A DNA stretch of 64,000 bases, taken from assembly GCA_964599625.1 (NCBI GenBank), contig CAZRGC010000002.1, forward strand, positions 71,883-135,882, in the 5' to 3' direction. The notes beneath the pieces were generated by a model. It ran no database searches. It was given only the letters and a program-made list of their open reading frames with translations, and was not told the DNA's origin. How positions within the stretch are numbered: position 1 is the first letter of the stretch; each line of letters starts with the position of its first letter. Below, piece after piece: positions 1 to 58,255 of this stretch. Made by a program: the position numbers and the translations under genes. This stretch comes from an uncultured Gammaproteobacteria bacterium (GTDB taxonomy: Bacteria > Patescibacteriota > Microgenomatia > UBA8517).

Positions 1-8
1 GGTCACTT

Positions 9-1091
9 TTGGCACAAAGGGTGTCTCAAAAGATAGGAGACATATTTATTTTGATAAAAGGCGAAAACGAATTTGTCACAAAAAAAATAGCAGAATGCTC
101 AACGGGACTAAGTTTTGAATCGGGGAGGCAGTGCTGGGAGAGAGCAATTGGTGACGTTGATAAGATTTTTGGAACAAACACAGCTTTTGATTTCCTACAA
201 AAAGCATCTTCTTTGGACCCCCAGATTCAGGGCACCTGTCATTATTATTCTGAATACATTGGGTTTTTGGCTTACGAAAGATTTTTCAGGGGCCAAAAAC
301 CTGAAATATATAAATCTGCCGATATCTGCGGATATGGTTTTTATCATGCTTTTTTGCAGGAACTTGTTAGTCATACCAAAGACATAAGCCAGGCATATGA
401 GTATTGCGAAGGTCTGGATTATGGGGGAAGTGGTAGTTTTGGAAAAGAGAATTGCATACAAGGTATGGGTATAGGACTAGTTTTTATGAATGCAGGAGTT
501 TATTACGGAATGGATGACATTATTGTAAATCTATCCGCAAGCGAATGTGGAAAATTTTTCTCAAAAGATTCGGAGATTGCAGACATTTGCATTAATGGTG
601 TTTTTTCCGGTTTGGCACATTTGTATTTTGGGGATCACGGTATTTACCTGGACCTTAAAAAGGAAGACCCTTTTTGGGTTTGCAGAAATTTTGACATAAG
701 CTTGCAGCGGGAGTGTTACCCTGCACTGTCAGAAGTTGTTTATTATTCCGGTGGTGAAGATATAAATAAAACTGTAAACCATATTTCTGCTATCAAAGAT
801 GATATTGCAAGGCGCTTAACTGCAGAAAAGTTAGGCATAGCTATTTATAGTTCCGGGTACTTTAAAGGCAGACAACACTCACCTTTATTTGTATGTAAAT
901 TTCCTGATACAGAAGTTTCTGAATCTTGTTTCGATGGCTATATAAAGCGTTATATAGCAGTGGAGGTAAGAGCTTTAGAGGGTAAACTTAAAGAGGAAGT
1001 TTGTGAGATTCCCGACTTGCCTGATTATCGAAAAAAAACTTGCAATAAGTATTTAAAAATTTTTATAAACAACAATGAAAACGGATATTAA
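9..1091 (+). CDS. Secreted Cys/His-rich repeat protein, family A. Probably 5'-truncated by the window edge, since no signal/TM is present and the frame is open upstream.
   Basis: Carries the motifs CHYYSEYIGF, CGYGFYHAF, CINGVFSGL...GDHG and DPFWVCRNF. These are shared with the C-terminal domains of the ORFs at 1075, 3812, 6542, 9739, 10806 and 16098. Confidence 0.6.
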   Translation: MAQRVSQKIGDIFILIKGENEFVTKKIAECSTGLSFESGRQCWERAIGDVDKIFGTNTAFDFLQKASSLDPQIQGTCHYYSEYIGFLAYERFFRGQKPEIYKSADICGYGFYHAFLQELVSHTKDISQAYEYCEGLDYGGSGSFGKENCIQGMGIGLVFMNAGVYYGMDDIIVNLSASECGKFFSKDSEIADICINGVFSGLAHLYFGDHGIYLDLKKEDPFWVCRNFDISLQRECYPALSEVVYYSGGEDINKTVNHISAIKDDIARRLTAEKLGIAIYSSGYFKGRQHSPLFVCKFPDTEVSESCFDGYIKRYIAVEVRALEGKLKEEVCEIPDLPDYRKKTCNKYLKIFINNNENGY

Positions 1092-2583
1092 AATAATTTT
1101 ATTTAGATTAGTTTTTGTGGCTTATCTTGTCTTTTGCGTATTTCTTGCCGTTAAACTTTTACCAAAAGTATCAAAAGTTGCTTCCGGCGAAGTCGTCGTT
1201 ACTTTTGATCTTAACAAGGGTTTTTCGCCGTCTGAGGTTGTTATCTCCAGAGGTACCACTGTTCGTTTTAGAAACATGAGTGGGGTCAACTTCTGGCCAG
1301 CCAGTGATTTTTATCCTCAAAATTCAAATTATCCGGACTTTGATCCTAAAAGGATAATTGAATCCGGTGGTGAGTGGAGTTTCCGTTTTGATAATACGGG
1401 GAGTTGGGGTTATCACGACCATATTAAGCCTATATTCAAAGGTGTTGTTGTTGTGACCGATGAAAAAAAGTTTCATATACAAAACAAGAGTACTTGTGGC
1501 GACTTATCAAAGTTGTCCTATGTTCAAAGGCAGCTTTGTTGGTATAACCAAATTAAAGAAGCCGTAAAAACAGGTGGTGTTGAAAAAGCGCTTGTGCTTT
1601 TTGAGTCGCTGTATAACAGTGAACCTTTGTTTTCTCAAGGCTGCCACGATGCAATGCATTTAATAGGAGATGAGGCGTATAGGGAGTACCGCAAGGGTGT
1701 TAAGTTTGACTTTAGTGAGGAAACCTCATTTTGTGGATACGGATTTTATCATGGGTTTATTGAAGCCATGCTTTATACAACAGCTGACTACAAAGAAGTC
1801 ACTGATTTTTGTGAGGAAGCGAATACTAATATCAAAAATATAGAATCGCCAAACGCAATTTATTCCTGTTATCACGGTATTGGACACTCAACATTCGATG
1901 CTCATGATCCGTCGTTGTGGGGGGATGAAAACAAAATGGTTGGCCCTGCGATAACAACTTGTGAACGAGTTACAAAAAACTATTCACAAGAAAAGACAAA
2001 ACAGTGTGTTACGGGAGTTTTCAACGCGTTGGGGATTGCATACGCAAACAACCTGTATAAGTTTAAACTAAAGGAATCAGATCCTGTTTGGTATTGTAGA
2101 AATCTGAACGATACTTATAAAAAGGCTTGCTTTATAGAAGTCTCTATGGCTTGGATAAATTCTCAAATGGGCGACTACGATTTCAAATTCAATGATGGAG
2201 CAAAGTTCATCCAGAATTTGAACGACGCGGTGGGTGAAGAAGCTGCCATTTTTGCATTGTCTTCGGAGTTTTCGAGACTTCATTTAAATGACTTTTCCGA
2301 CAAATCCCTTCTTGATAACTGCAGGAGTGTTCGGAAGGACTTATTTGATCAGTGCCTGGTGGGGGTACAGCTGGCACTTTTGAATTGGGGAAAACCTGGC
2401 GAAGAGTACGTGAGGGCACTTTCCTTTTGTGATAACGGAGTGTTTTCGGTTAATGAGAAACGAAGTTGCTATGGATATATTTTTAAGCACCTTCCCAATA
2501 TGTATTCCAAAGAAAAAAGAATTAGTATATGCGAAGGCCTGCTTGACCAGGTCATCAAATCACAATGCATAAACTCACAATAA
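1075..2583 (+). CDS. Cupredoxin-like N-terminal domain fused to a family-A Cys/His-rich repeat domain; N-terminal TM/signal anchor.
   Basis: Hydrophobic N-terminus (LVFVAYLVFCVFLAV). The beta-rich domain at aa ~35-125 has WPASD...YHDH...GVVVV. Downstream motifs: CHDAMHLIGD, CGYGFYHGF, CYHGIGHS, CVTGVFNALG, DPVWYCRNL. It overlaps the previous ORF by 17 nt. Confidence 0.65.
   Translation: MKTDIKIILFRLVFVAYLVFCVFLAVKLLPKVSKVASGEVVVTFDLNKGFSPSEVVISRGTTVRFRNMSGVNFWPASDFYPQNSNYPDFDPKRIIESGGEWSFRFDNTGSWGYHDHIKPIFKGVVVVTDEKKFHIQNKSTCGDLSKLSYVQRQLCWYNQIKEAVKTGGVEKALVLFESLYNSEPLFSQGCHDAMHLIGDEAYREYRKGVKFDFSEETSFCGYGFYHGFIEAMLYTTADYKEVTDFCEEANTNIKNIESPNAIYSCYHGIGHSTFDAHDPSLWGDENKMVGPAITTCERVTKNYSQEKTKQCVTGVFNALGIAYANNLYKFKLKESDPVWYCRNLNDTYKKACFIEVSMAWINSQMGDYDFKFNDGAKFIQNLNDAVGEEAAIFALSSEFSRLHLNDFSDKSLLDNCRSVRKDLFDQCLVGVQLALLNWGKPGEEYVRALSFCDNGVFSVNEKRSCYGYIFKHLPNMYSKEKRISICEGLLDQVIKSQCINSQ
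1177..1450 (+). other. Cupredoxin-like (plastocyanin/EfeO-N-like) domain lacking the canonical Cys ligand.
   Basis: The pattern TVRFRN...FWPASD...FD...GEWSFRFDNTGSWGYHDHIKPIFKGVVVV parallels plastocyanin's GxYxFxCxPHxxxGMxGxIxV. It has His-Asp-His where the Cys-x-x-His normally sits. Confidence 0.4.
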
Positions 2584-3818
2584 TTTTTTCAAAAACTAAT
2601 CTTTTGTGGCTGATCACAACTCTTTTAGTTGTTTTTTTTGTTTTCCTAAAAGTGGGTCCGATTGTTAACTTTGGGAATGGAATGCTTGAAATGTTTGCAG
2701 GAAAGGTAATAAAAAAATGCGCAAACGAGACATACCGTCCAGCATGTTATGACAATGAGATTCCCAAATTTGTTGACAGAAATATTCTTTCAATGGAACA
2801 GGCTTTTGCTATGAATTCAATAATCCAAAAATCCGACAAAGAATATTTGTATTGTCACATATTGGGACACAACTTGGCCGATTCAGAAACAAGAAAAAAC
2901 CCGGATAAGTGGCTTGAGGTTATTACGCGGTGTCCCACACTGGCATGCAACAACGGATGTGAACATGGAGCAATAATGAGGAGGTTCAAGGGCTCCGAAG
3001 TCCTTTCGGCTTCTCAAATAGAAGAAATTATTCCGGAGCTGAAACGGGCTTGTGAACCAAGAGGGAAGTGGGACCCTACCGAGCTGGAAAGATCAATGTG
3101 CTATCACTCCATTGGACACTTGGGCCTGTATATTACAGGAGCTGATATTGAAAAATCTTTGGAAATATGTAGTAAAGTGGGCATTAAAGAAGATGGAAGA
3201 AGCTATTATCAAACGTGTGTTTCGGGAGTTTTTATGCTTATATTTCAAAGTCTGGACAAAGACGATGAAGCTTTGGTTGTGAATGTCAAACCCCCGAAAG
3301 AAAAAGTGAACGAATTTTGTTCAAAATATAGCGGAGTGGAAAACACAGCCTGCAGGACGGAATCCTGGCCGTATTTTTTTGATGAATTTACTGAGCCTGG
3401 TGGGCTAACCAAATTTTGCAGTTTCACTCAGGATAGTTATTACAGAAACTGGTGTTTTGATACAGGGTTGCGGGGTAACCTCACTTTGAGATTGTTGCAA
3501 AAGGATGGCATTTCCGGAGTTGCAAAATACTGTTTGGGTCTGCCCGGTGATATAAAAGCAAGATGTTTTGCATCAGTTGCCAACAGCTGGGTCCAAGATG
3601 AACCCAACTACATAGCCGATTCGATTGCTTTGTGTGTTGAAGCTGACAAGTATGGCTACGCAGACGAGTGCTATAAGGGTCTTTTGTATTTTTCCAAGTT
3701 TAGTTTTAATTATGGTTCTGATCTGTGGAGGTCGTATTGTACAAACTTTCCCGAAAACCACAAACAAAAAAACTATAGACAAATGTGTTTGAAAGGAGAA
3801 ACTCCTGAGGGATGGTAA
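2565..3818 (+). CDS. Secreted Cys-rich repeat protein, family B.
   Basis: N-terminal TM (LLWLITTLLVVFFVFL). Repeated C-x(9-12)-C modules: YLYCHILGHN, CNNGCEHGAIMRRFKG, CYHSIGHLGLYI, YYQTCVSGVFM, FCSKYSGVENTAC, FCSFTQDSYYRNWC. Close paralog of the ORF at 5305. Confidence 0.6.
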   Translation: MHKLTIIFSKTNLLWLITTLLVVFFVFLKVGPIVNFGNGMLEMFAGKVIKKCANETYRPACYDNEIPKFVDRNILSMEQAFAMNSIIQKSDKEYLYCHILGHNLADSETRKNPDKWLEVITRCPTLACNNGCEHGAIMRRFKGSEVLSASQIEEIIPELKRACEPRGKWDPTELERSMCYHSIGHLGLYITGADIEKSLEICSKVGIKEDGRSYYQTCVSGVFMLIFQSLDKDDEALVVNVKPPKEKVNEFCSKYSGVENTACRTESWPYFFDEFTEPGGLTKFCSFTQDSYYRNWCFDTGLRGNLTLRLLQKDGISGVAKYCLGLPGDIKARCFASVANSWVQDEPNYIADSIALCVEADKYGYADECYKGLLYFSKFSFNYGSDLWRSYCTNFPENHKQKNYRQMCLKGETPEGW

Positions 3819-5290
3819 AAAAAATCTTTTTTCGTTTCATTTTGATGATCTTTTTGTTTGCAGCGACCTGCCTGGTTGTTAGAGAGTCCGTATTTAAAAA
3901 TACAATTTTTTATACTGATAAAGGTTTTGCCCCGGCCGGAATACGAGTAGTAAGAGGCGATACCGTTACATTTATCAATCTGACAAACAGACAATTTTGG
4001 CCCGCGAGCGACCCTCATCCTCAGCATTCAATAGAACCAACATTTGACGCTCAAAACGGAATTGGTCTTTTGGGGAAATATAAAATATTTTTTAAAAACG
4101 ACGGAACGTATAGATACCACGATCATCTAAACCCTAAATTTAGGGGTGTAATAAAAGTTATTGATAAAGCTGTGGGTGCCGATGTATCACGCTGTACAGA
4201 GTTTACAGACAAGTACGAAAAGAAGCTTTGTTTCCTGGAATATTTAGAAGACATGCAGCTGGCAAAAGGTGATGTGAAAGCTTTATCAATGCTGGAGACA
4301 ATCGTATCGCAAAATTCTGATCTAAAGAGCGAGTGTCACTCAATGGCGCATAACATTGGTGAAATAGGTTATTGGTCATATTCGACGAATGCAAAAGTTA
4401 TAAATTCACAAAAAGTATCGGTCTGCGGGTTTGGCTATGTCCACGGTTTTATGCAGGAGTTTGCTCATCATTCTCCAGATTTCTACTCTAAAAGCAAATC
4501 CTTTTGTGACTATTTTTCAAAAGAAGTTAAATATGATTCAGACGATTGGCAAATTACTCCGGAAGATACCTGCTACAACGGAATAGGGCATGGAATTGTC
4601 TACCTCAACTTTGAGGATTATCGAAACGATCTTGTATCATTGGCCAGGACGTCTGGTGCAAAGTGTTCCGAAATAAATTCTGCACCCGCACCGCTTGATC
4701 ATTGTTTGCAGGGTGTTTTTAGCGGAATTTCGGGTTTGTATTTGGGAACTCACGGATTTTTCTTGCCACTTCCGGACACTGAGCCTCTTTCTTTGTGTAC
4801 CAAGTTTGACAAAGAGTATAAGTTAAGGTGTCTTGCCAACATGATTCCGGTGGTTGGGGTTATATATAATCACAACCTAGAGAACCTTCTGATGACTATC
4901 AAAAATATGTCAAAAGAGGATTTGGAACATTCTTACAGACTGGCGGGAGATATTGCAGCAAATTGGTACAGTGGAGGGGAAATTGATTCGGATAGTGTTG
5001 CAAAAGCATGCAGAAAACTAAGTAATCCCTTCAGCAAATATTGTATCAGTGGTTTTGTTGCCGCTCTTCCTAATATTTACGGGTACGAGGCAGATCCTGA
5101 ATTTGCCATGAATATTTGTAAAAAGGCATTAGTGGCGGCGGCCGGCTGCCAGACTGAATTTTTGCTTGAGTATGAAAAAATAAATCCAGACAAAATGGAG
5201 AGTGTATTGAGAGTATTGGAAGCAAAAGACTTCCATTTATTGTGTAGAAACCCCATAATCGGTAAATACTGTACATATTCAAATAATTGA
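3812..5290 (+). CDS. Cupredoxin-like N-terminal domain fused to a family-A Cys/His-rich repeat domain.
   Basis: TM (FRFILMIFLFAATCLVV). Cupredoxin-like motif FWPASDPHPQHS...YRYHDHLNPKFRGVIKV at roughly nt 3900-4170. Then CHSMAHNIGE, CGFGYVHGF, CYNGIGHG, CLQGVFSGISGLYLGTHG. The ATG overlaps the upstream stop. Confidence 0.65.
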   Translation: MVKKIFFRFILMIFLFAATCLVVRESVFKNTIFYTDKGFAPAGIRVVRGDTVTFINLTNRQFWPASDPHPQHSIEPTFDAQNGIGLLGKYKIFFKNDGTYRYHDHLNPKFRGVIKVIDKAVGADVSRCTEFTDKYEKKLCFLEYLEDMQLAKGDVKALSMLETIVSQNSDLKSECHSMAHNIGEIGYWSYSTNAKVINSQKVSVCGFGYVHGFMQEFAHHSPDFYSKSKSFCDYFSKEVKYDSDDWQITPEDTCYNGIGHGIVYLNFEDYRNDLVSLARTSGAKCSEINSAPAPLDHCLQGVFSGISGLYLGTHGFFLPLPDTEPLSLCTKFDKEYKLRCLANMIPVVGVIYNHNLENLLMTIKNMSKEDLEHSYRLAGDIAANWYSGGEIDSDSVAKACRKLSNPFSKYCISGFVAALPNIYGYEADPEFAMNICKKALVAAAGCQTEFLLEYEKINPDKMESVLRVLEAKDFHLLCRNPIIGKYCTYSNN

Positions 5291-5304
5291 ATTTATATGA
5301 CTAT

Positions 5305-6528
5305 ATGAAAAATAAACCAGTGACTCTTTTTGCAATTTTGTTGACTATTTCCGGTTTATTTATTTTTTTTATACCTGTTTTTAATAATTTATCCAGCGAA
5401 TATAAAACAAGTTATTTTTCGAAAAAAATTATAGAGAAGTGCTCGAACGACAATTTTAGAAGGGTCTGCTATGACAGAGAGATTCCCAAACTTCTTAAAA
5501 AAGGCTTTGTAACAATGGAGGAAGCTTTTTTGATAACTAACGATATTCAAAAAAAGGACACCTCGTATTTGTATTGTCATACTTTGGGACATGAGTTGGC
5601 GGACATCGAAACTGCAAAAAATACAGATAAATGGCTGGACGTTATGGCGCGTTGTCCGAATTCTGCCTGCAATGGCGGGTGCGAACATGGGGCTGTTGTG
5701 CGAAAGTTCAAGGGCAGCGAGACACTGACAGATGCACAAATAGAGGCGATAATTCCAGAGATATCAACCGCCTGTGAACCCAGGGGTAGTTGGAGGCCTT
5801 CAGGGCTTGAGATATCACTTTGCTACCATTCGATGGGGCATTTGGGCATGTATATTACGAATGCTGATATTGAAAGGTCTTTAGACTTTTGCAAAGATGT
5901 TTCTAAAAAACCTGACGGACGTGATTATTACCAGACTTGTGTGCAGGGTGTGTTTATGATTATTTTCCAAGCAAGGGACAGTGACGATTTGGCCTTGGTT
6001 TCCAGAATTGCACCTAAAAAAGTTGAAATAGAATCTTTTTGTTCAAAATATAGCGGCATCGACATGGTGGCTTGCAGAATAGAGTCCTGGCCGCTTTTCT
6101 CCGAAGAACTCAGATCGGCAGAAGGTTTAACAAAGTTTTGCAGTTTTACAAATGATTCAAATTTTAGGAAATGGTGTTTTGATGACTCAGGAATGAGGGG
6201 TGGTCTTTCAATTGAAATATTACAGTCGAAAGGAATTTCTGGTGTTGCGGATTATTGTGTTTCGTTCCCTTCTGATATAAGAGAAAGGTGTTTTAGTTCG
6301 GTTGCCACTGCTTGGATACAGGATGAACCATCCTTTTTAAGTAAATCTATAGAGTTATGCCAAGAGGGCAGTAAGTACGGTTACTCAAACAAATGCTTTG
6401 ACGCACTTGCTTCTTATTCAGTTTTCAGATTGAATAAAGGTTCGGAAGAATGGTCCGATTATTGCACGGCGCTCCCGAGTTTTTATAAGGAAAAATGCCT
6501 TAAAGGTGAAGTGTCGGATTCTTGGTAA
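5305..6528 (+). CDS. Secreted Cys-rich repeat protein, family B.
   Basis: ATG at 5305. The ORF track opens at a TTG at 5287 that overlaps the upstream stop. TM (VTLFAILLTISGLFIFFIPVF). Motifs colinear with 2565..3818: CYDREIPK, YLYCHTLGHELAD, CNGGCEHGAVVRKFKG, CYHSMGHLGMYI, YYQTCVQGVFM. Confidence 0.6.
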   Translation: MKNKPVTLFAILLTISGLFIFFIPVFNNLSSEYKTSYFSKKIIEKCSNDNFRRVCYDREIPKLLKKGFVTMEEAFLITNDIQKKDTSYLYCHTLGHELADIETAKNTDKWLDVMARCPNSACNGGCEHGAVVRKFKGSETLTDAQIEAIIPEISTACEPRGSWRPSGLEISLCYHSMGHLGMYITNADIERSLDFCKDVSKKPDGRDYYQTCVQGVFMIIFQARDSDDLALVSRIAPKKVEIESFCSKYSGIDMVACRIESWPLFSEELRSAEGLTKFCSFTNDSNFRKWCFDDSGMRGGLSIEILQSKGISGVADYCVSFPSDIRERCFSSVATAWIQDEPSFLSKSIELCQEGSKYGYSNKCFDALASYSVFRLNKGSEEWSDYCTALPSFYKEKCLKGEVSDSW

Positions 6529-6541
6529 CAACTACAACAAC

Positions 6542-9738: not shown

Positions 9739-10809
9739 ATGAAGACAAAAACCAACAGTTTGACACTTTTGACCATTTTGATAGCGGCGGTCTTTATTGC
9801 ACGTATTGGAGTCAAATCCGAAAACCGGATTGTAAAAAAATGCGAAAACGTTCAAAACACCAGGGATTGTAGATTAAAAGAGGTGGTAAAAGTAATGAAC
9901 GAGCGAGGTGTGAGATTTGCATTTATTGCTGTCGAAAATCTTAAAGACGCAGATTCCGAGTTTGGTCCCACGTGTCATGCGTTTGTTCACGAGATAGGTT
10001 TGGAAGCATATAAAAATGTTTTAAAAGGAAGTAAATTTTTGGCCGTACCAATTTCACCTTGCAACTATGCTTTTTTCCATGGGTTGATGATGGAGCTTGT
10101 AATGCACCAAAGGACAACCAAGGAACTAGACTTCAGGTTTGCAAATCAGGTTTGCCAAGATGTTGTGAGAATGTCTGGATATGATCAATCAATAAAATAT
10201 CAGTGTTACCATGGGATAGGGCATGGTCTTGCACCTTATCACCTGTTGATGACCAACAAACCAATAGCCGAGATTATTGACAATAGTCTGCGAGACTGCG
10301 AGGAATATTTTGATGCCAAAGATTTTTGCAAGACGGGTGTTTATGGAGGAATGAGCTTGTTTATAACCGGTGACCACAATCTGTTTTTGGAGGGTTTTGG
10401 CATTTCTGACGCGTTTAAATTATGCAAAAACCAACCTTTAGATTTGCGGCCTGTGTGTTATGAAATGATTGCACCTGCACTTGTTTTTTCTACAGGCGGC
10501 GATGTTAAAAAGGCAGTGGCGGTGATGAAAGACTCAATAAAAAACGACGAGGAAAGATTGGTTATCTCCAGACAGCTCGGCCAGGCGGTTTTATCTTACA
10601 ACTTTGAGGCCGGCATAGTTGAAATGAAAGAAGTCTGTGATCAGATTTTAGGAGATAGCCACTTAAGCTGTGTGGAAGGTTTTATAAACGGTTATTTCGA
10701 CTCTCGTTCTAAAAACAGCATCAAACAAACTGCTGAAAGTTTCTGCCAAAGTCCAAGCTTTACAAACGAGGAATCAGATTTGTGCAGAAACCTTGCAGTC
10801 AAAATATGA
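9739..10809 (+). CDS. Secreted Cys/His-rich repeat protein, family A.
   Basis: Signal anchor MKTKTNSLTLLTILIAAVFIA. Motifs CHAFVHEIGLEAY, CNYAFFHGL, CYHGIGHGLAPYH, CKTGVYGGMSLFITGDHN. Confidence 0.6.
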   Translation: MKTKTNSLTLLTILIAAVFIARIGVKSENRIVKKCENVQNTRDCRLKEVVKVMNERGVRFAFIAVENLKDADSEFGPTCHAFVHEIGLEAYKNVLKGSKFLAVPISPCNYAFFHGLMMELVMHQRTTKELDFRFANQVCQDVVRMSGYDQSIKYQCYHGIGHGLAPYHLLMTNKPIAEIIDNSLRDCEEYFDAKDFCKTGVYGGMSLFITGDHNLFLEGFGISDAFKLCKNQPLDLRPVCYEMIAPALVFSTGGDVKKAVAVMKDSIKNDEERLVISRQLGQAVLSYNFEAGIVEMKEVCDQILGDSHLSCVEGFINGYFDSRSKNSIKQTAESFCQSPSFTNEESDLCRNLAVKI

Positions 10810-11951
10810 ATTCAAAATACAAATATATAATTATTGCCGTTATTGCCACTTTTGTTTTAATAATTTTATATATGCGAAATCAGATGTTTTTGTCCGACGG
10901 CTCAGAATGCTTTGATGTTCCCAGTTCTGAAAAATCTGACTGTATTCGACCTGATATAGATAGACTTTTGAACAATGGTAGAGTTGATGCGGCCTTAACC
11001 TTTCTAAGGCAATACCAGGTAAATGACAAAAATTATTATGGAACAGATTGTCACGGCATAGCCCACTATATAGGGGATAAGGCGTATCTGGTTTACAAGA
11101 AAGGCGGAAAAATCAACGTTGGAAGTGATTCAGGCGTTTGTGTATATGGGTTTTACCATGCTTTTACAAGCTCGTTTATTGCAAACGGTGAATACGAAAC
11201 AGTGAGAAGTTTTTGTTCAGGTATAAGTAAAGACAAGTTTCAGGAAATTTCAGGGTGTTATCATGGCATGGGCCACGGCGCCATCTACGATTTTTATGAA
11301 AAATTCGGGATTAGGGATCCATTAACTTTAATCAATAAAGGCGTCGCTCTTTGTGAGAAGTTGGAATTGCCCGAAGAGGGAGCTTTGGAATGTGTTACGG
11401 GTGTTTATGATGGGATTGGAGACGAGGTTTTGGACCCGTCATATACAGGACTCACACCTGAAATCATTTATTCTTACTGTGTAGACCAGCCGAAAGTATA
11501 CAAAGGTAAATGTTACGAAAATATTTCTCACCTGGTCTTTAGAAAAACTCAGTCCGGGTTTGAAAATTTACTGAACTTCGCACTGAAAAATGTAGAACAT
11601 GATTATGTGGCAGATGCTGTCAAAGGCTTGGCAACAATATATGTTGTCGATCTTAAAGGTGAGGATATTCGGACAGGAATCAGACTTTGTTTACCTCTAA
11701 AGGATGATGCAAAAACAGGGTGTATTAAAAATATGGTTTACAAAGTTATGGCTGATGTGGAAGACGGTACTCAGTTTGAAAAAGGTAAAGATTTTTGCAG
11801 TTTGGACGTTTTTGGAGAAATTGACAGAAGCTTTTGTGTCCGGGTTACGCTCGATGCTTTGACTGGTTTTTATAGTCAAAATCAGATTGAAGAGAAGTGC
11901 GAAGCTGACTCCAGTTTTTTTGGTGCGGCTTGTAAATCTAAATTTTTATGA
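10806..11951 (+). CDS. Secreted Cys/His-rich repeat protein, family A.
   Basis: The ATG at 10806 forms an ATGA overlap with the upstream TGA. The ORF track opens 24 nt earlier. TM (YIIIAVIATFVLIIL). Motifs CHGIAHYIGDKAY, CVYGFYHAF, CYHGMGHGAIYDF, CVTGVYDGIGDE. Confidence 0.6.
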   Translation: MNSKYKYIIIAVIATFVLIILYMRNQMFLSDGSECFDVPSSEKSDCIRPDIDRLLNNGRVDAALTFLRQYQVNDKNYYGTDCHGIAHYIGDKAYLVYKKGGKINVGSDSGVCVYGFYHAFTSSFIANGEYETVRSFCSGISKDKFQEISGCYHGMGHGAIYDFYEKFGIRDPLTLINKGVALCEKLELPEEGALECVTGVYDGIGDEVLDPSYTGLTPEIIYSYCVDQPKVYKGKCYENISHLVFRKTQSGFENLLNFALKNVEHDYVADAVKGLATIYVVDLKGEDIRTGIRLCLPLKDDAKTGCIKNMVYKVMADVEDGTQFEKGKDFCSLDVFGEIDRSFCVRVTLDALTGFYSQNQIEEKCEADSSFFGAACKSKFL

Positions 11952-12946
11952 GACCGAGAATATTGATATTGGCAATAGGCTTAATGTTAACTTCATTCAT
12001 CGTGATCTATGCAGGTATAAATTATCCGTTCACCGTGCGGATTACAAATGATGTGTTGATAAACCAAAATGAGTTAAAAAAAATAATTAAGACAAAAGGT
12101 ATTGATGAGGCTTATGTTTTTTTTAAGAAAAACTTTTCAAAGTACGACGCAACCTCCAAACATTATGTGGGGCATTTCTTGGGACAAGAATCTTACAGAA
12201 TAATGGGTGACAAAGGCCTGTCTATGTGCGATTTTGGGTTAGATTACGGATGCATTCACGGTTTTGTCATTGCCGGCATTGGCGAAAAGGGTAACGGTTT
12301 TATAGAAACTTCCATGAAGCGTTGTGAGGATTTTGATCCAAATGATGTCAGGAGGGGGAGTTGTGTACATGGGGTAAGCCATACACTCTTGTACTTAAAG
12401 GGGTATTCCTATAACGACTTGGTTTGGTCCCTAAAGCAATGCGATCAAATGTTATCAAGTGACAAGTTTGTGGGACCTGTCGGGTGCTACGAGGCCGTGT
12501 TTATGGAATACAACCTTAGGAATTTGGATGGTGAGTCGACGGGCAAATGGTTTGAAACAAGACCTCTTGACGATGCAAGACCGCTTTACCCTTGCGACGT
12601 AATCGATAACAGATATAAAAACTCTTGCTATTCGGAACTTGGTTCAATGTGGTCCAACAACATTGGCATGGACTTTTCGAAAATGTTTTCTTTTTGTGGG
12701 GGAATTATCAACCGTTTACATTTGAATTCTTGTTACTGGGGGGTTGGAAGGTCGATGGCTGATGACTACCAATTTGATTACAAACGAGTTGAAACAAAAT
12801 GTAGCGAGATAAAAGATGGTGGAAAGCAGTCTTGTATCGAAGGAGCTTCGGTTGTTTTATCCAATAACGGTGTAAAAGAGGCCGTGTCAATTTGCAGTGC
12901 TTTGGATGCAGACAGTGCTCTAAGGTGTAAAAAAATATTTGAATAA
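11948..12946 (+). CDS. Divergent member of Cys/His-rich family A.
   Basis: ATGA overlap at 11948. TM (ILILAIGLMLTSFIVIYAG). Degenerate motifs KHYVGHFLGQESY, CDFGLDYGCIHGF, CVHGVSHTLLYL, CYEAVFMEY, CYWGVGRSM. Confidence 0.5.
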   Translation: MRPRILILAIGLMLTSFIVIYAGINYPFTVRITNDVLINQNELKKIIKTKGIDEAYVFFKKNFSKYDATSKHYVGHFLGQESYRIMGDKGLSMCDFGLDYGCIHGFVIAGIGEKGNGFIETSMKRCEDFDPNDVRRGSCVHGVSHTLLYLKGYSYNDLVWSLKQCDQMLSSDKFVGPVGCYEAVFMEYNLRNLDGESTGKWFETRPLDDARPLYPCDVIDNRYKNSCYSELGSMWSNNIGMDFSKMFSFCGGIINRLHLNSCYWGVGRSMADDYQFDYKRVETKCSEIKDGGKQSCIEGASVVLSNNGVKEAVSICSALDADSALRCKKIFE

Positions 12947-12962: not shown

Positions 12963-13586
12963 GTGCTGCCAATGAACGACCAAGCGACAGAAAATAATCA
13001 GATCACTCAGGAAAACCTCACCAGCCCACAAACGCCATTGCAGGCTTCCACGCCTTCTGGCCAGTCCCAAATACCTGTTTCTGTCGTTCCAACTGAAGTA
13101 TCCGAAGAAGGTGACGCGCCATTTTACACACAGTGGGCCTTTTGGGTTCTCGTGGTTTTGATCGTTGTTTTGTTCGGTGTTATTGCATTTTTTTTAGTTC
13201 CGGCAAAAAATTCTTTTCTTGAGGCAGAAATGCAAGTTTCTGCAGAATCTGTGAAGTTGCATGTAAAAAACCTTACAGCACCCAGGAACGGTTTTTTGGT
13301 GCTACAAAAAGACGAAAACGGTGTTCCTGGTGCAATTTTTGAAATAAGTCCATTTTTGGTTCCAGACCACTATAAAGATTTTTTTATACCCTTCACACCT
13401 GACGAATACAACGACGATGTCTATTATCAAGACCTAGGGCTAAACGGAACCTTCTACGTTACTTACTACCTGGATAACGATAGCACTGGAACCTATAAAA
13501 AAGAAATTGATACGACAATCGGCAAGGACCAAGCAGGCAAACCCTTGCAAATAAAGATTGTCAGTGGCAAAATGGTTCAAGAGTAA
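12963..13586 (+). CDS. Single-pass membrane protein. Low-complexity cytoplasmic N-terminus, TM, extracellular domain of about 130 aa; function unknown.
   Basis: Q/T/S/P-rich N-terminal 60 aa. TM (WAFWVLVVLIVVLFGVIAFFLV). No recognisable catalytic motifs. Confidence 0.4.
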   Translation: MLPMNDQATENNQITQENLTSPQTPLQASTPSGQSQIPVSVVPTEVSEEGDAPFYTQWAFWVLVVLIVVLFGVIAFFLVPAKNSFLEAEMQVSAESVKLHVKNLTAPRNGFLVLQKDENGVPGAIFEISPFLVPDHYKDFFIPFTPDEYNDDVYYQDLGLNGTFYVTYYLDNDSTGTYKKEIDTTIGKDQAGKPLQIKIVSGKMVQE

Positions 13587-13587
13587 T

Positions 13588-14106
13588 ATGAATAAATTTA
13601 CATTGATTTTGTATTCTGTTCTGATATCGCTTTTAATTGCTCCTACTGTTTTGGCTCACGGGACAGCTCAAAGTTTCCCTAAAGATGTCGACAAATATAC
13701 GATTGAATTTGAATATGACGCATCTGGGGTTTTTGATGACACAACGATGGCTTTTGTTTTTAGGCTTTTGGACCAAAAGTCAAAAGAGCCGGTTAAGTTT
13801 GACTCTGTGTTGGCAAGGTTTGAAGACAGCAAAGACAAGTCGGCTGTAATAGTTTCCAGGCTATACCCGGATGAGCTACTGGACGGAATTGCCAGAATAT
13901 CTGCACTTTTGAATCGTGGAGACTATAAAGTATATTTAATCTTTTACAAAGAGGGAAACAAAATTGTTGAAACAGATTACGACCTGAACGTTCAAAAAGG
14001 TACAACAAGGAAAGACTTTCCGACGGTTCCAGTTGTTGTTGGGTTTTTGGGTTCTGCGTTGGGTTTTGTTTTTGGCAAGATGAAGAAGTCTTCAAATGAG
14101 AGATAA
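13588..14106 (+). CDS. Secreted protein with signal peptide and C-terminal TM anchor; function unknown.
   Basis: ATG at 13588 lies 2 nt after the upstream TAA. The ORF track opens at 13558. Signal peptide MNKFTLILYSVLISLLIAPTVLA|HG. C-terminal TM (VPVVVGFLGSALGFVFG) followed by basic residues. Confidence 0.4.
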   Translation: MNKFTLILYSVLISLLIAPTVLAHGTAQSFPKDVDKYTIEFEYDASGVFDDTTMAFVFRLLDQKSKEPVKFDSVLARFEDSKDKSAVIVSRLYPDELLDGIARISALLNRGDYKVYLIFYKEGNKIVETDYDLNVQKGTTRKDFPTVPVVVGFLGSALGFVFGKMKKSSNER

Positions 14107-15670
14107 AAAGTTACTGCTTCTTTTGTTTTTAATCCTATTTTTGGGACTGATTTTACGAACTTACAAACTTAATACAAATTTTATTTTTGGTGTTGACCAG
14201 GCGGAGGATATGTTTAAGTTCAAAGAAATCGTAACCGATATAGCTAGAGGTAACTTTTCCAACCTTCCGCTAATTGGTGAACCCGGGACAGATTTGACCG
14301 ATAACAAAAACGTACACGGCGACTACGTTGTGTATTCCGGGGCGCTTTTTTTGTATCTGGTGACACCGTTTGCTTTGATATCACGGTTTGATCCATCGAT
14401 TTTGGTGTATTTTTTTTCTTCTGCCAACCTTTTGGGAGTAATTTTGATTTATTTAGTTACCAAGAAGTTGTCGGGTAGTGTGCAGGCGGTTTTTGCTTCA
14501 CTTTTATATTCGGTAAATTTCTACATGTCTACCTATTCCCGAGCAATCTGGACTCCAAGTCTTGTTCCGGTTTTTTTGTTGACAGCTTTGTATTTATGGT
14601 CGGTTGTAAAAGAAGGTAGGGAGTCTTTGGTCCCTGCATACCTTTTTTTTGCCTCTGCTATTTCACAACTACATGACTCGGGGTACTATTACATGTTCTT
14701 TTTCATTATCCTGGCATTGGCAAGTCGTATTAGATTGTTTGCCAAAGATAAAGTTGTCTACAATTCGATGGCTTTTCTTGCGCCTCTTACACCAACACTT
14801 ATTTATGAAGTCAGTACCGGTTTCAGGTTCTTTAAACATATTATAGGTACGCTCTTGACTAATTCTACTAGTATAAATAGTGACCTGATTGTTGGGATTT
14901 TTGGTAAGTTTTGGGAATTTTTTGTGTCCATCAATTTTCCTTTATATTTCCACAATTTCTTTAGTCAAAAATATTCAATTTTATATATCCCGCTTTTAAC
15001 TGTCATAACTTTGGTAACAACACTTGGACTATTTTTGCCGATTATAAAAAGGGACAAAAAACTTGGTGTACTTTTTTTTGTTTTTATCATGACTTTTTTG
15101 GTTGTGCCTTACGCCTCAAAGGTTTTTTATAACGATTCATACTTTGGTTTATTCCCGCTTTTTGGAACCACATTTTCGACACTGGGTGCTATGCCTATTG
15201 TTATTATTTCTGTTGGTGTATTTTTGGGAAATCTGTACCTTAGGGGCGGTGTGGTAAAGTTTCTGTCGTTGGCTGTTGTTTCCTTTTTAGTTCTTAATCA
15301 AATTCCTTTGATCAAGTCCACTATTTGGGAAAACGGAGAACGAAAATATGACTATGGCAACAAACTGGACATAATAAAAACTCTTGGTGACAATGTTCAT
15401 TCTGGCTACTCGTTGGAATATCTGGATCCAGATAGCTACGGTGAAGGTTATGAGTTTTTCTACATTATAGAGACAGCAAACGTTAGACTACCTTACTCAT
15501 ATAACGGCGCTACGGAAAAAACCACACTTTTTCATAGATACGAGTTTGGCAAAAATAAGCCTTCAGACCATTTTGCGATTGCAGGGCGCAGGGTCTGGGA
15601 CAAATTTTCCGTAGAAGAGTGGCATCAACTTGGCGAATCCGGAGAATTTAGAATATTTAGGCAGAAATAG
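14096..15670 (+). CDS. Polytopic membrane protein. Putative GT-C-fold glycosyltransferase of the ArnT/PMT type (polyprenol-phosphate-sugar dependent).
   Basis: More than 10 predicted TM helices. An early extracytoplasmic loop GVDQAEDMFKFKEI resembles the ArnT DETRYAEISREM aspartate-glutamate motif. C-terminal soluble domain of about 120 aa. The assignment rests on pattern resemblance only. Confidence 0.4.
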   Translation: MRDKKLLLLLFLILFLGLILRTYKLNTNFIFGVDQAEDMFKFKEIVTDIARGNFSNLPLIGEPGTDLTDNKNVHGDYVVYSGALFLYLVTPFALISRFDPSILVYFFSSANLLGVILIYLVTKKLSGSVQAVFASLLYSVNFYMSTYSRAIWTPSLVPVFLLTALYLWSVVKEGRESLVPAYLFFASAISQLHDSGYYYMFFFIILALASRIRLFAKDKVVYNSMAFLAPLTPTLIYEVSTGFRFFKHIIGTLLTNSTSINSDLIVGIFGKFWEFFVSINFPLYFHNFFSQKYSILYIPLLTVITLVTTLGLFLPIIKRDKKLGVLFFVFIMTFLVVPYASKVFYNDSYFGLFPLFGTTFSTLGAMPIVIISVGVFLGNLYLRGGVVKFLSLAVVSFLVLNQIPLIKSTIWENGERKYDYGNKLDIIKTLGDNVHSGYSLEYLDPDSYGEGYEFFYIIETANVRLPYSYNGATEKTTLFHRYEFGKNKPSDHFAIAGRRVWDKFSVEEWHQLGESGEFRIFRQK

Positions 15671-15714: not shown

Positions 15715-16101
15715 ATGAGTAAAAAAACATCTGTTTTGATTGGAGTCTTGATTTTAGCAGTTGTTGCCTTTGTCGGTTACAAATATCTTTCACCTGATTC
15801 AAAGTCAAAAGCAGTCCCTTTGAATGATGGAGATATTGTAAAAATGGGTGAAGATGTATATGAACCGCAGGATTTTATTATTAAGAAGGGTGCAAAAATA
15901 AAATTTCAAAACACCTCGGGTACTTTGAGATGGCCGGCTAGCGATCTTCACCCTTCACACTTAATTTATCCCGAGTTTGATTCCAAAGAACCTGTTCAAA
16001 AAGACGGTGCTTGGGAGTTTGTTTTCGACAAAACAGGTGAGTGGACCTACCACGATCACCTGGCTCCATATATAACAGGAAAAGTTGTAGTAACGGAATG
16101 A
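15715..16101 (+). CDS. Stand-alone membrane-anchored cupredoxin-like protein (128 aa).
   Basis: TM (VLIGVLILAVVAFVGY), then IKKGAKIKFQNTSGTLRWPASDLHPSHLIYPEFD...GEWTYHDHLAPYITGKVVVTE. This is the same domain as the N-termini of the ORFs at 1075 and 3812. Its TGA overlaps the ATG of the next gene (ATGA). Confidence 0.6.
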   Translation: MSKKTSVLIGVLILAVVAFVGYKYLSPDSKSKAVPLNDGDIVKMGEDVYEPQDFIIKKGAKIKFQNTSGTLRWPASDLHPSHLIYPEFDSKEPVQKDGAWEFVFDKTGEWTYHDHLAPYITGKVVVTE

Positions 16102-17279
16102 AGTCTGATATTAGCTCGACCCTCAAATTTTTAGTTTTGGGAGGTCTTTTCGTATATATAATTTTTTTTCCCGTAAGTGATATTGTCGGGGGTATCCGCA
16201 GTACCTCTTCATTTTTGCGCTGTCATACACTTGAAAACTCTTCAGACAAAGTTATTTGCCAGAGAAAGGCGATAAGAACTGCGGTACAATCCGGTTCGGT
16301 AAATACTGCAATTAGCCTTTATAAAAGTGCTATAAGGGTTGGTGCTATCGATTGCCACTTTCTTGGCCACGAAGTGGGTAGAGATTTTTATGAAGTATTC
16401 AAAGAGCGGGGATTTGCAAGGGTAGGTGAGCCTATGTCTGAGTGCGGGTACGGTTTTTGGCATGGGTTTATGACGGGTGTGGCTCAGGACTTTTTAACAA
16501 CAGGAGAAGCAAAAGTTGATCTAAACAAAGTGTGCCCAATGATGTTGGGAAATAAAAAACAAATTTACGACATATGCTATCACGGTTTTGGGATAGGCTT
16601 TGTTGGCGACCCACCATTTCCTGAGAATGTGGGTAACATTCAAAGTACTGTTGACCGGGCAACAGGCCAATGTGACAAAATCACAAACGTTCCGATATAC
16701 AATGAACAGTGTTATTCGGGGGTTTTTCATCAAATGTTAAGTTATATGCAAAACTCTGAGTACGACTACAAATTTCCTTCCGGTGACGATGTGTATTTGT
16801 TTTGTAACAAATTTGGCACTTCCAAAGTGCGGCCTTGTATTGAGCAGCTTGGTCCTGTGCTCACAATTGTTGTTACGGACGATGTTGCGAAAATTACCGA
16901 TCTTGTGAACAAAAAATTTGGCTGGTTAGACAAAATAACCAGATCAAGACTTCTTCAGACAGTAGTAGGTGGAGCTGTCCATGCAAACACCGACGACAAG
17001 GATGCTTCAAGTATGATTTTTTGCTTTAGTTTGAAAGACAGCGACGTTACCGATTGTATAACTGGCGTGTTTTCGGGTGTAAAGACGAAGTCGGCAGAAG
17101 GTGACGTAAAAGCTTTGGAAAGGCTGGTGTCTTTTTGTTTGCAGGAAAAACTATCCTCGGAAAATCAAAAAGTGTGTATAGACTTTCTGAAAGCTTCCGT
17201 TAAAGACCCGGTACTCAACAAGGAGGTTAGATCTGAATGTGCACAAAAAAAAGATAAGGAAATATGCAAACTTATTTAA
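16098..17279 (+). CDS. Secreted Cys/His-rich repeat protein, family A.
   Basis: The ATG at 16098 forms an ATGA with the cupredoxin gene's stop. The ORF track opens at 16041 in the same frame. Signal anchor MKSDISSTLKFLVLGGLFVYIIFF. Motifs CHFLGHEVGRDFY, CGYGFWHGF, CYHGFGIGFVGD, CYSGVFHQML. Confidence 0.6.
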   Translation: MKSDISSTLKFLVLGGLFVYIIFFPVSDIVGGIRSTSSFLRCHTLENSSDKVICQRKAIRTAVQSGSVNTAISLYKSAIRVGAIDCHFLGHEVGRDFYEVFKERGFARVGEPMSECGYGFWHGFMTGVAQDFLTTGEAKVDLNKVCPMMLGNKKQIYDICYHGFGIGFVGDPPFPENVGNIQSTVDRATGQCDKITNVPIYNEQCYSGVFHQMLSYMQNSEYDYKFPSGDDVYLFCNKFGTSKVRPCIEQLGPVLTIVVTDDVAKITDLVNKKFGWLDKITRSRLLQTVVGGAVHANTDDKDASSMIFCFSLKDSDVTDCITGVFSGVKTKSAEGDVKALERLVSFCLQEKLSSENQKVCIDFLKASVKDPVLNKEVRSECAQKKDKEICKLI

Positions 17280-58254: not shown

Positions 58255-58255
58255 T

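What the first reader, a model, noticed from the sequence alone, without database searches (positions are those of the whole stretch)
1..17279. 17-kb co-directional array of 13 paralogous secreted Cys/His-rich repeat proteins
Thirteen adjacent + strand genes encode proteins with an N-terminal signal/TM and repeated two-cysteine modules (a-C-x(9-14)-C-x-x-G). Four of the gene junctions are ATGA overlaps (8741, 10806, 11948, 16098) and most others are a few nt apart or overlapping. Recurring His-containing motifs include CHxxxH, CGYGFYHGF, CYHGIGHG, C[VA]TGV[FY] and DP[FVY]W[YIV]C. Three sub-families alternate: A is His-rich, B is CNxGCEHG / CYHS[IM]GH, and C is His-poor. The number of conserved His/Cys in extracytoplasmic proteins suggests metal (Cu/Zn) coordination or a disulfide-stabilised helical repeat scaffold. 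I do not recognise it as a named family. This scale of local expansion points to an envelope or secreted function under diversifying pressure.
Basis: seen in the sequence. Interest (0 to 1): 0.7.

Follow-up and report, generated by a model that had tools for sequence, protein, structure and literature searches.

The report
Undescribed His/Cys helical-repeat surface protein array
A tiny uncultured bacterium (Patescibacteria) carries a tightly packed row of at least twelve related membrane-anchored surface proteins from a large family that no database names. Their conserved histidines and copper-type partner genes suggest an unknown metal-dependent (probably copper) cell-surface machine.

Summary
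The array is real, with corrections. Bases 1-17279 hold 16 co-directional genes. Twelve (not 13) are paralogs; four others (12963-16101) are unrelated and Cys-free. The window edge cuts the array: a near-identical contig shows at least 3 more paralogs upstream.

The family matches nothing in Pfam or NCBIfam, no solved-structure sequence and no specific PDB fold. It is large (6,367 clusters at 50% identity), and every clearly named record is Patescibacteria.

- **Architecture:** N-terminal membrane helix, then an all-alpha solenoid (pLDDT 93) of internally repeated modules.
- **Cysteines:** 16 conserved; 89% of ectodomains have an even count, pointing to disulfide staples rather than metal ligands.
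- **Histidines:** five are 93-97% conserved, a likely metal site.
- **Partners:** a cupredoxin whose blue-copper Cys is Asp (fused in about 27% of members), and a CopC-fold protein with an invariant His after its signal peptide.

Copper is therefore my best guess, but it is inferred, not shown.

"Diversifying pressure" is not supported. dN/dS is about 0.16, and 11 paralogs have same-order orthologs in another genome, so the duplications are old. Function is untested.

The parts
3..1091 (+). Paralog 1, 3' part only (360 of about 471 codons). The window edge removes the N-terminus. Its His pentad is degenerate (HEHQI).
   Evidence: ORF. One search shows a 471-aa full gene in L077. One search gives the pentad. 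One search gives E 9e-51.
1075..2583 (+). Paralog 2: membrane helix + cupredoxin-like domain (two of its four His lost: YNHDH) + solenoid with an intact pentad (HHHHH).
   Evidence: One search gives E 3e-106.
2565..3818 (+). Paralog 3, subfamily B (20 Cys, CNNGCEHG / CYHSIGH), pentad intact.
   Evidence: One search gives E 6e-11.
3812..5290 (+). Paralog 4: membrane helix + cupredoxin-like domain + solenoid, pentad HHHNH.
   Evidence: One search gives E 3e-51.
5287..6528 (+). Paralog 5, subfamily B (probable start ATG 5305), pentad intact.
   Evidence: One search shows a 407-aa ortholog.
6506..7711 (+). Paralog 6, subfamily A (probable start ATG 6542). This is the copy that was modelled. Conserved His at 101, 105, 136, 176 and 180, with 16 paired Cys.
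   Evidence: 98% hit is 389 aa. (pLDDT 93, all-alpha). (numbering).
7650..8744 (+). Paralog 7, subfamily C, pentad lost (RYRFI). A 62-nt overlap with paralog 6 is conserved in other genomes.
   Evidence: One search gives dN/dS 0.14.
8741..9721 (+). Paralog 8, subfamily C, pentad lost (KYSFD). ATGA overlap at 8741.
   Evidence: One search gives dN/dS 0.19.
9739..10809 (+). Paralog 9, subfamily A, pentad intact. It lacks the last Cys pair.
10782..11951 (+). Paralog 10, subfamily A (probable start ATG 10806, ATGA overlap), pentad intact.
11948..12946 (+). Paralog 11, the most divergent copy. The first Cys pair is absent, and the Cys before the first His is replaced by a local C-x7-C. The five His are present. 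ATGA overlap at 11948.
   Evidence: One search shows a 60% ortholog in L001. One search gives E 2e-9.
12963..13586 (+). Not a paralog. Low-complexity N-terminus, one membrane helix, then a beta-rich domain with a weak DUF7282 match. No Cys.
   Evidence: E 0.0016, below cut-off.. Homologs in 8 of 77 loci.
13558..14106 (+). Not a paralog (probable start ATG 13588). Signal peptide ending ...VLA, then an invariant His as the first mature residue, a CopC-like beta-sandwich, and a C-terminal membrane helix followed by KK.
14096..15670 (+). Not a paralog. A multi-pass membrane GT-C glycosyltransferase of the PMT_2/ArnT type.
   Evidence: 25.7 bits against a 26.1 cut-off. Searches show the syntenic copies hit PMT_2.
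15715..16101 (+). Stand-alone membrane-anchored cupredoxin-like protein. Motifs are WPASDLHPSH ... YHDH, with no Cys or Met ligand.
   Evidence: Cupredoxin_1, E 4.8e-5; the profile hits amicyanin at 1e-9, with the type-1 Cys aligned to Asp.
16041..17279 (+). Paralog 12, subfamily A (probable start ATG 16098, ATGA overlap), pentad HHHHI.
   Evidence: One search gives E 6e-46.

Best explanation
This is a vertically inherited, operon-like gene cluster of a Patescibacteria (CPR) bacterium. It encodes a set of membrane-anchored, outward-facing alpha-solenoid proteins from a large undescribed family.

**Proposed working of each protein**
- An N-terminal helix anchors the protein in the membrane.
- The ectodomain is built from internally repeated modules. 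The best self-alignment shift is about 70 residues, which implies roughly five modules.
- In each module a 10-17-residue loop between helices is closed by a disulfide. There are eight such staples, which would make a rigid scaffold.
- Five near-invariant His sit on three neighbouring helices: C-H-x3-H, G-F-x-H-G and C-Y-H-G-I-G-H-G.
- I infer that these His form a metal site, most likely copper.

**Proposed partners**
- A cupredoxin domain, either fused or encoded next door. Its blue-copper Cys/Met ligands are replaced by a His/Asp set.
- A co-encoded CopC-fold protein whose mature N-terminus is an invariant His, a chaperone-like architecture.

**Proposed assembly**
- The paralogs probably act together as one multi-subunit surface assembly.
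- Copies that have lost the pentad would serve as non-metal subunits.
- The neighbouring GT-C glycosyltransferase may glycosylate the assembly or the envelope around it.

**What is shown**
- The paralogy, the fold class and the internal repeats.
- The Cys and His conservation.
- The co-occurrence of the partner genes.
- The purifying selection and the conserved gene order.

**What is inferred**
- The outward-facing topology and the disulfides.
- Metal binding, and copper specifically.
- Hetero-assembly of the paralogs.
- Any catalytic or redox role.
For: **Family and fold**
- Twelve paralogs are found by an independent HMM.
- The AF2 model of 6506-7711 has pLDDT 93 and pTM 0.87, is all-alpha, and starts with a long helix at residues 11-54.
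- Internal repeats are supported by hhalign self-hits with E 4e-11 to 7e-9.

**Cysteines point to disulfides**
- There are 16 Cys columns at 78-100% conservation.
- Sequential pairs co-vary in presence, with phi 0.76-0.79.
- 89% of 318 ectodomains have an even Cys count, with a mode of 16.
- DsbA-like genes lie in 6 loci.

**Histidines point to a metal site**
- The five His are 93-97% conserved, and 289 of 318 members have all five.

**Cupredoxin partner**
- A cupredoxin is present in most of the 77 loci.
- It is fused to the family domain in 122 of 159 cupredoxin hits, which is about 27% of family members.
- Its profile hits amicyanin, plastocyanin and NirK at E 1e-9 to 8e-14. The upstream His is kept and the type-1 Cys aligns to Asp.
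- Four of its His are 94-99% conserved.

**182-aa partner**
- It has an invariant His directly after the signal peptide in 17 homologs.
- A mature N-terminal His is rare and is a known predictor of metalloproteins (PMC12537917).

**Paralogs acting together**
- Gene junctions overlap, several as ATGA.
- Gene order is conserved across genomes.
- In other organisms 2-7 copies are fused behind a single membrane helix.

**Functional genes**
- dN/dS is 0.16 overall.
Against: - No metal binding has been measured.
I could not check His-His geometry or Cys-Cys distances.
- Five His is an odd number for the classic copper centres.
- No acidic ligand is conserved across the whole family.
- Metal specificity is open. 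N-terminal-His proteins and P19-like folds also bind Ni, Co, Fe or Zn.
- No copper transporter or known copper enzyme was seen among the recurrent neighbours.
- Many Patescibacteria are anaerobic fermenters with little known need for copper.
- The cupredoxin and CopC-like genes are missing from some loci. Those loci are often short contigs.
- Selection of the loci used a pattern containing CYHGIGHG. This inflates pentad conservation for one member per locus.
- The 182-aa model was built from only five sequences (mean pLDDT 73).
Confidence: 0.4

Rival explanations
1. The proteins are a metal-free structural or adhesive surface scaffold. On this view they are disulfide-hardened helical-repeat ectodomains, comparable to Sel1-like or Helicobacter cysteine-rich proteins. 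They would bind host or partner-cell surface molecules. The conserved His would serve folding, pH sensing or ligand contacts rather than metal binding.
For: - The fold is a generic alpha-solenoid, and such folds usually bind ligands or proteins.
- The organism is of an episymbiotic lineage, and the same window holds giant lectin-domain surface proteins.
- Pentad-less copies are retained under purifying selection.
- Some relatives are fused to FG-GAP repeats.
Against: - 289 of 318 members keep all five His, which sit on three neighbouring helices with flanking Gly. This is unusual for a pure binding surface, which normally varies between paralogs.
- The family is persistently fused or adjacent to a cupredoxin that has a conserved His/Asp site, and to a protein with a mature N-terminal His.
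- No Sel1 or TPR profile hit was found.
Confidence: 0.25
2. The family is a metal-dependent enzyme or binding protein that uses a metal other than copper (Zn, Fe, Ni, Co) or a scavenged tetrapyrrole. Examples would be a surface hydrolase or a metallophore/heme receptor. The cupredoxin-like and CopC-like partners would then handle that other ligand.
For: - All-His sites and His/Gly-rich helices also occur in Zn, Ni and heme proteins.
- N-terminal-His secreted proteins bind several different metals (PMC12537917).
- The P19, Tp34 and HftA structural neighbours bind Fe as well as Cu.
- One relative is fused to an alpha/beta-hydrolase domain.
- The cupredoxin lacks the Cys that makes the classic blue copper site.
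Against: - Both partner folds (cupredoxin and CopC/CrdA) are overwhelmingly copper-associated in characterised proteins.
- There is no HExxH or other hydrolase signature.
- No carboxylate is conserved family-wide.
- There is no CxxCH motif, and Patescibacteria generally lack heme synthesis (established knowledge).
Confidence: 0.2
3. This is the first reader's reading: a recent local gene expansion evolving under diversifying selection, for example as variable surface antigens or receptors.
For: - There are many tandem copies with low pairwise identity.
- Synonymous divergence between two close strains is mosaic, dS 0.004-0.30, which suggests recombination inside the array.
Against: - Same-order orthologs for 11 copies exist in another genome, at 42-69% identity against 23-33% between paralogs.
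- dN/dS is 0.05-0.28 for every paralog.
- The core residues are invariant.
Confidence: 0.05

Closest known systems
Sel1-like repeat / Helicobacter cysteine-rich proteins (HcpA-E)
   Same: Both are secreted or envelope-located multi-paralog families of alpha/alpha repeats in which disulfides cross-link each repeat. The Hcp features are from my own knowledge of that family.
   Different: - No Sel1 or TPR profile hit in 12 window copies and 52 homologs.
- The self-alignment shift is about 70 residues, with C-x10-17-C loop staples, rather than a 36-residue repeat.
- This family has a conserved His pentad, a membrane anchor and a cupredoxin fusion.
Cupredoxins (amicyanin, plastocyanin, C-terminal domain of NirK)
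   Same: The N-terminal domains of 1075-2583 and 3812-5290, and the stand-alone 15715-16101 protein, share the fold and the upstream His ligand. Profile E-values are 1e-9 to 8e-14.
   Different: - The type-1 ligand set His-Cys-His-Met is not present.
- The Cys aligns to Asp, and the His and Met positions align to Ala and Leu.
- Instead, H-P-x-H and H-D-H are 86-99% conserved.
- The site resembles engineered Cys-to-Asp (type-2-like) sites, not an electron-carrier blue site.
CopC/PcoC/CrdA periplasmic copper proteins and YcnI of Bacillus subtilis
   Same: - It has a mature N-terminal His like the CopC Cu(II) site and like YcnI.
- It has a C-terminal membrane helix, as YcnI does (PMC8424229, PMC9182242).
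   Different: - No CopC or DUF1775 profile hit at E up to 10.
- A second conserved His is absent, so at most a mono-His brace is possible.
- No CopD or YcnJ partner was seen.
Type-3 copper proteins (tyrosinase, hemocyanin), especially mollusc hemocyanin strings of 7-8 functional units
   Same: This is an analogy only. Shared features are a His-only site carried on helices with H-x3-H motifs, an accompanying beta-sandwich domain, and strings of up to 7 paralogous units of about 400 residues in one chain in some relatives.
   Different: - Five conserved His, not six.
- The fold here is a solenoid, not a four-helix-bundle core.

Membership tests
Sel1-like repeat / Hcp family | Match to the Sel1 (PF08238) or TPR-clan repeat profiles. 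| tested here: not met
   No such hit at E up to 0.1 for the 12 window paralogs. None at E up to 1 for 52 homologs.
Sel1-like repeat / Hcp family | Repeat of about 36 residues (two helices), with one disulfide per repeat. | tested here: not met
   The best self-alignment shift is about 70 residues. Conserved Cys pairs are spaced C-x10-12-C, C-x17-C and C-x29-C.
Cupredoxin fold (for the N-terminal domains and 15715-16101) | Sequence or profile similarity to solved cupredoxins. | tested here: met
   The profile of 34 domains gives NirK C-terminal domain 7.6e-14, amicyanin 1.4e-9 and plastocyanin 3e-6. Pfam Cupredoxin_1 scores 23.8 bits, just under the 27-bit cut-off.
Type-1 (blue) copper proteins | Ligand set His ... 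Cys-x(n)-His-x(n)-Met. | tested here: not met
   Among 145 domains the maximum Cys frequency in any column is 3%, and no Met column is conserved. In the alignment to amicyanin, Cys92 aligns to Asp, His95 to Ala and Met98 to Leu.
CopC/PcoC/CrdA family (for 13588-14106) | CopC-type beta-sandwich fold. | tested here: met
   [not shown]
CopC/PcoC/CrdA family (for 13588-14106) | Cu(II) site made of the mature N-terminal His plus a second His and an Asp, and a match to the CopC profile. | tested here: inconclusive
   The N-terminal His is invariant in 17 homologs and an acidic residue at position 40 is conserved. No second His is conserved. No CopC Pfam hit at E up to 10.
YcnI (DUF1775) | Signal peptide, N-terminal His, beta domain, C-terminal membrane helix, and a match to DUF1775. 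| tested here: inconclusive
   [not shown]
GT-C glycosyltransferases, PMT_2/ArnT type (for 14096-15670) | Match to PF13231 and a multi-pass membrane architecture. | tested here: inconclusive
   25.7 bits against a 26.1-bit cut-off, E 1.5e-5. The syntenic ortholog in L003 has an unmarked PMT_2 hit. The sequence is hydrophobic throughout.
Type-3 copper proteins | Six His (3+3) on a four-helix bundle, and fold similarity to tyrosinase or hemocyanin. | tested here: not met
   [not shown]
Metal-binding by the solenoid family itself | The His pentad converges in space and binds a metal. The Cys pairs lie within disulfide distance. | not testable with these tools
   Model coordinates are not returned by the structure tool, and there is no biochemical assay. 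Only indirect evidence is available.

The most novel reading that the evidence does not exclude
The solenoid family is a new class of extracytoplasmic copper protein specific to Patescibacteria. It would carry a His-only (possibly binuclear) copper centre on a disulfide-stapled helical repeat. A Cys-less cupredoxin and a mono-His-brace chaperone would load or feed it. Many specialised units would be arrayed on the cell surface, or strung into polyproteins of up to seven units. They would perform oxidative chemistry or oxygen/ROS handling at the interface with the host cell.
Probability: 0.15. Interest if true: 0.9.

Novelty: new variant of a known kind. Interest (0 to 1): 0.66.

Why it matters
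Patescibacteria make up a large share of bacterial diversity. They live attached to other cells, and most of their surface proteins have no known function.

This family is one of the larger blind spots:
- It comprises thousands of sequence clusters.
- It nearly always occurs in tandem arrays of 2-14 or more copies.
- It has no database name, no solved relative, and no paper that I could find.

The five-His and sixteen-Cys signature, together with two copper-type partner proteins, gives a concrete hypothesis. That hypothesis can be tested cheaply by expressing one ectodomain and measuring its metal content.

If copper chemistry at the cell surface is confirmed, it would change the view of these organisms as metabolically minimal fermenters. 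It would also add a new metal-site scaffold.

There is a practical warning too. Single-domain 'plastocyanins' annotated in CPR genomes and proposed as electron carriers may include these Cys-less domains, which probably cannot form a blue copper site.

Tried and rejected
- **Family libraries:** Pfam and NCBIfam scans of all 16 products gave nothing for the solenoid domain. A Pfam scan of 52 homologs at E up to 1 gave no recurrent family.
- **Solved structures by sequence:** a profile search against PDB sequences gave only a chance TPR-like hit at E 0.79.
- **Solved structures by fold:**
  - The AlphaFold database library (afdb50) was not available.
- **Sel1/Hcp, TPR and type-3 copper membership:** all rejected (see the membership tests).
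- **Pseudogene or decay reading:** rejected. All ORFs are intact and dN/dS is low.
- **Recent expansion or diversifying selection:** rejected.
- **Cys as metal ligands (copper-storage-protein-like):** rejected as the main role, because of the even Cys counts and the pairwise gain and loss.
- **Promoter and terminator scan:** counts were no higher than in shuffled sequence, so it says nothing about operon boundaries.
- **Structure prediction for the 182-aa protein:** A database search found only 4 close homologs, so that model rests on a shallow alignment.
- **Literature:** six full-text searches found no description of the family.
- **Other recurrent neighbour families:** unnamed proteins of 168, 331, 213 and 533 aa, plus TPR proteins, gave no functional clue.
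Full report
**What is in the sequence**

Bases 1-17279 carry 16 ORFs, all on the + strand, packed with overlaps or gaps of at most 44 nt. Two of them use internal ATG starts, and the gene lengths in close relatives support those starts.

A multiple alignment of twelve of the products shows 11 invariant Cys. An HMM built only from homologs in other genomes finds exactly these twelve among the 153 window ORFs of 80 aa or more. E-values run from 2.5e-157 to 1.8e-9, and nothing else in the 64 kb matches. So there are 12 paralogs, not 13.

Four genes at 12963-16101 contain no Cys and belong to other families. They separate paralog 11 from paralog 12.

The first gene is cut by the window edge. In a near-identical contig (L077) it is 471 aa, and at least three more paralogs lie upstream.

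Every complete paralog starts with a hydrophobic helix.

**Origin and size of the family**

- No Pfam or NCBIfam model matches the domain, and no PDB sequence does.
- The word-indexed database search returned 261 hits. All are unnamed or 'hypothetical', and the few named ones come from Patescibacteria or Gottesmanbacteria.
- An exhaustive profile search found 6,367 clusters at 50% identity with E up to 1e-3, and 4,546 with E up to 1e-10.
- A scan of species-representative genomes returned 217 relatives.
  - Nearly all clearly named records are Patescibacteria lineages: Microgenomates, Daviesbacteria, Kaiserbacteria, Nomurabacteria, Paceibacterota, Yanofskybacteria and others.
  - One record is titled Verrucomicrobiia.
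  - Several automated MAG titles read 'Gammaproteobacteria'. These sit on contigs syntenic with the window, and I take them to be mislabelled.
- The rest of the window looks like ordinary CPR chromosome: LeuRS, ArgRS, ComEA/ComEC and giant surface proteins.

**Anatomy of the domain**

AlphaFold2 was run on a 52-sequence alignment for the 6506-7711 product. The model has pLDDT 93.3 and pTM 0.87. It shows a long N-terminal helix (residues 11-54) followed by about 20 helices.

Profile self-alignment of 318 members gives shifted alignments at E 4e-11, 1e-10, 3e-9 and 7e-9. The best one is shifted by about 70 residues. The domain is thus an internal repeat.

I aligned 421 non-redundant members from 77 loci, of which 318 are near full length. 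The only family-wide conserved residues are these:
- 16 Cys (78-100% conserved).
- Five His (93-97%): H101, H105, H136, H176 and H180 in 6506-7711 numbering.
- A few Gly next to the His.

The Cys fall in sequential pairs that bracket inter-helix loops: C-x10-12-C, C-x17-C and C-x29-C.

**What the cysteines do**

Three observations point to disulfides rather than metal ligation.
- 89% of the 318 ectodomains have an even Cys count (14, 16, 18, 20 or 22; mode 16).
- Where a pair is missing, both partners are usually missing. The last pair is present in 277 members, absent in 27 and half-present in 14, giving phi 0.79. In paralog 11 the lost Cys before the first His is compensated by a new local C-x7-C.
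- DsbA-type thioredoxin genes sit next to the arrays in six loci.

Together with the N-terminal helix, this supports an outward-facing, disulfide-stapled ectodomain. That conclusion is inference. I could not measure distances because model coordinates are not returned.

**What the histidines do**

All five His are present in 289 of 318 members. Selection of the loci used a pattern containing one His motif. That biases one member per locus but not its neighbours.

The His lie near the start of three nearby helices. Each of these helices begins just after the second Cys of a disulfide staple. H101/H105 and H176/H180 occupy nearly the same positions on equivalent helices of successive repeats, and H136 sits on the helix between them. 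They are flanked by Gly. No acidic residue is conserved family-wide.

This is the pattern of a His-only metal site, and copper proteins most often use such sites.

In the window the pentad status is as follows.

| Pentad status | Paralogs |
|---|---|
| Intact (7 copies) | 1075, 2565, 5287, 6506, 9739, 10782, 11948 |
| One substitution (2 copies) | 3812 (HHHNH), 16041 (HHHHI) |
| Degenerate (1 copy) | 9-1091 (HEHQI) |
| Lost (2 copies) | 7650 (RYRFI), 8741 (KYSFD) |

**Partners**

*Cupredoxin.* A cupredoxin-like domain occurs in most of the 77 loci. It is fused between the membrane helix and the solenoid in 122 of 159 cupredoxin hits, which is about 27% of family members. The window has two fusions and a stand-alone copy at 15715-16101.
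- Its profile matches a NirK C-terminal domain (7.6e-14), amicyanin (1.4e-9) and plastocyanin.
- The blue-copper ligands are gone. The upstream His is kept, the Cys aligns to Asp, and the His and Met positions align to Ala and Leu.
- Instead, W-P-A-S-D-x-H-P-x-H and Y-H-D-H are 86-99% conserved. No Cys or Met column is conserved.

*The 182-aa protein (13588-14106).* This is the most frequent unrelated neighbour, present in 22 of 77 loci.
- In 17 homologs the only invariant polar residue is a His directly after a canonical signal peptide (...A|HG...).
- The protein ends in a membrane helix followed by KK.
- Its modelled core has pLDDT 82-96, from a shallow five-sequence alignment.
- A mature N-terminal His is the hallmark of the CopC, YcnI and LPMO copper sites. 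It is rare in secreted proteins generally (PMC10952591, PMC8424229, PMC12537917).

*Other neighbours.* A GT-C glycosyltransferase occurs in about 14 loci, and a DUF7282-like membrane protein in 8 loci.

**Evolution**

Eleven consecutive window paralogs each have their best match at the same rank in a second genome (L001/L002), at 42-69% identity. Paralogs within the window share only 23-33%, apart from the two B copies (53%). The non-paralog genes follow in the same order. The duplications therefore predate the split of these genomes, and the order is maintained.

Against the close strain L077, dN/dS is 0.05-0.28 for the paralogs and 0.16 overall. This is purifying selection and includes the pentad-less copies.

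In other organisms, two to seven copies are fused in one chain behind a single membrane helix. P0121, for example, is 3,580 aa with seven units. Together with the translationally coupled junctions, this argues that the copies work together physically.

**Best explanation and rivals**

I conclude that this is a conserved cluster for a multi-subunit, membrane-anchored surface assembly. It is built from disulfide-stapled solenoids that carry a His-only metal site. Copper is the most likely metal, because two independent copper-type folds with remodelled His-based sites travel with it.

My confidence by layer:

| Claim | Confidence |
|---|---|
| Outward-facing disulfide-stapled scaffold | about 0.85 |
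| Metal site | about 0.6 |
| Copper specifically | about 0.4 |

Rivals:
- A metal-free adhesive scaffold (0.25).
- Another metal or cofactor (0.2).

None of the biochemistry has been tested.

**Novelty**

The family fails membership tests for Sel1/Hcp, TPR and type-3 copper proteins. Its partners are atypical members of the cupredoxin and CopC folds.

I found no description of the family in the literature. CPR papers do mention single-domain cupredoxins as plastocyanin-like electron carriers. The domains here lack the required Cys.

I rate the finding as a new variant of a known kind: a disulfide-stabilised helical-repeat surface protein combined with copper-handling folds. I put a minority chance (about 0.15) on it being a new class of copper protein.

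Noticed in passing
window 17272-20298 (- strand), together with 14096-15670 (+): Four sugar-modification genes converge on the end of the array: a DegT-type aminotransferase, a GT2 glycosyltransferase, a 127-aa protein with no Pfam hit, and a methyltransferase. Together with the GT-C gene inside the array, they resemble an ArnB/ArnC/ArnT-type pathway that builds a lipid-linked amino sugar and transfers it outside the membrane. This is my inference from the domain names.
   Followed up: partly
window 20914-38097 (-), 46804-58254 (+), 58196-63193 (+): There are three giant ORFs. The first is 5,727 aa and has one Laminin_G_3 domain. The second is 3,816 aa and oddly begins with a MerR-type HTH domain. 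The third is 1,665 aa and has seven Laminin_G_3 lectin domains. The 20-38 kb stretch has GC 0.45 against 0.38-0.40 in the array.
   Followed up: partly
window 5300-10800 and 11950-12950, compared with L077: Synonymous divergence from a near-identical strain is mosaic. dS is 0.12-0.30 in these stretches but 0.004-0.04 in the flanking genes of the same array. This suggests a recombination tract inside the cluster.
   Followed up: no
window 7650-7711: Paralogs 6 and 7 overlap by 62 nt in different frames. The same overlap is called in the orthologous genes of L001, L002 and L077. An alternative later start (TTG at codon 29) exists in the window.
   Followed up: no
window 38104-38628 (-): A 174-aa ORF has only the N-terminal SAM-like domains of a phage-type integrase and no catalytic domain. 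It sits directly upstream of the 5,727-aa gene.
   Followed up: no
proteins P0121-P0126, P0133, P0140, P0217 (relatives, not in the window): In other organisms the family domain occurs 2-7 times in one polypeptide behind a single membrane helix. It is occasionally fused to an alpha/beta-hydrolase domain (P0217) or to FG-GAP repeats (P0140).
   Followed up: partly
window 15715-16101, and the cupredoxin domains in 1075-2583 and 3812-5290: Published CPR genome analyses treat single-domain cupredoxins as plastocyanin-like electron donors to NirK (PMC5581439, PMC12931201). The domains here lack the Cys and Met ligands, so that role should not be assumed for them.
   Followed up: partly
window 41816-44416 (+): Competence genes ComEA (HHH_3/SLBB) and ComEC, followed by a metallo-beta-lactamase-fold protein, lie between the LeuRS and ArgRS genes.
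   Followed up: no
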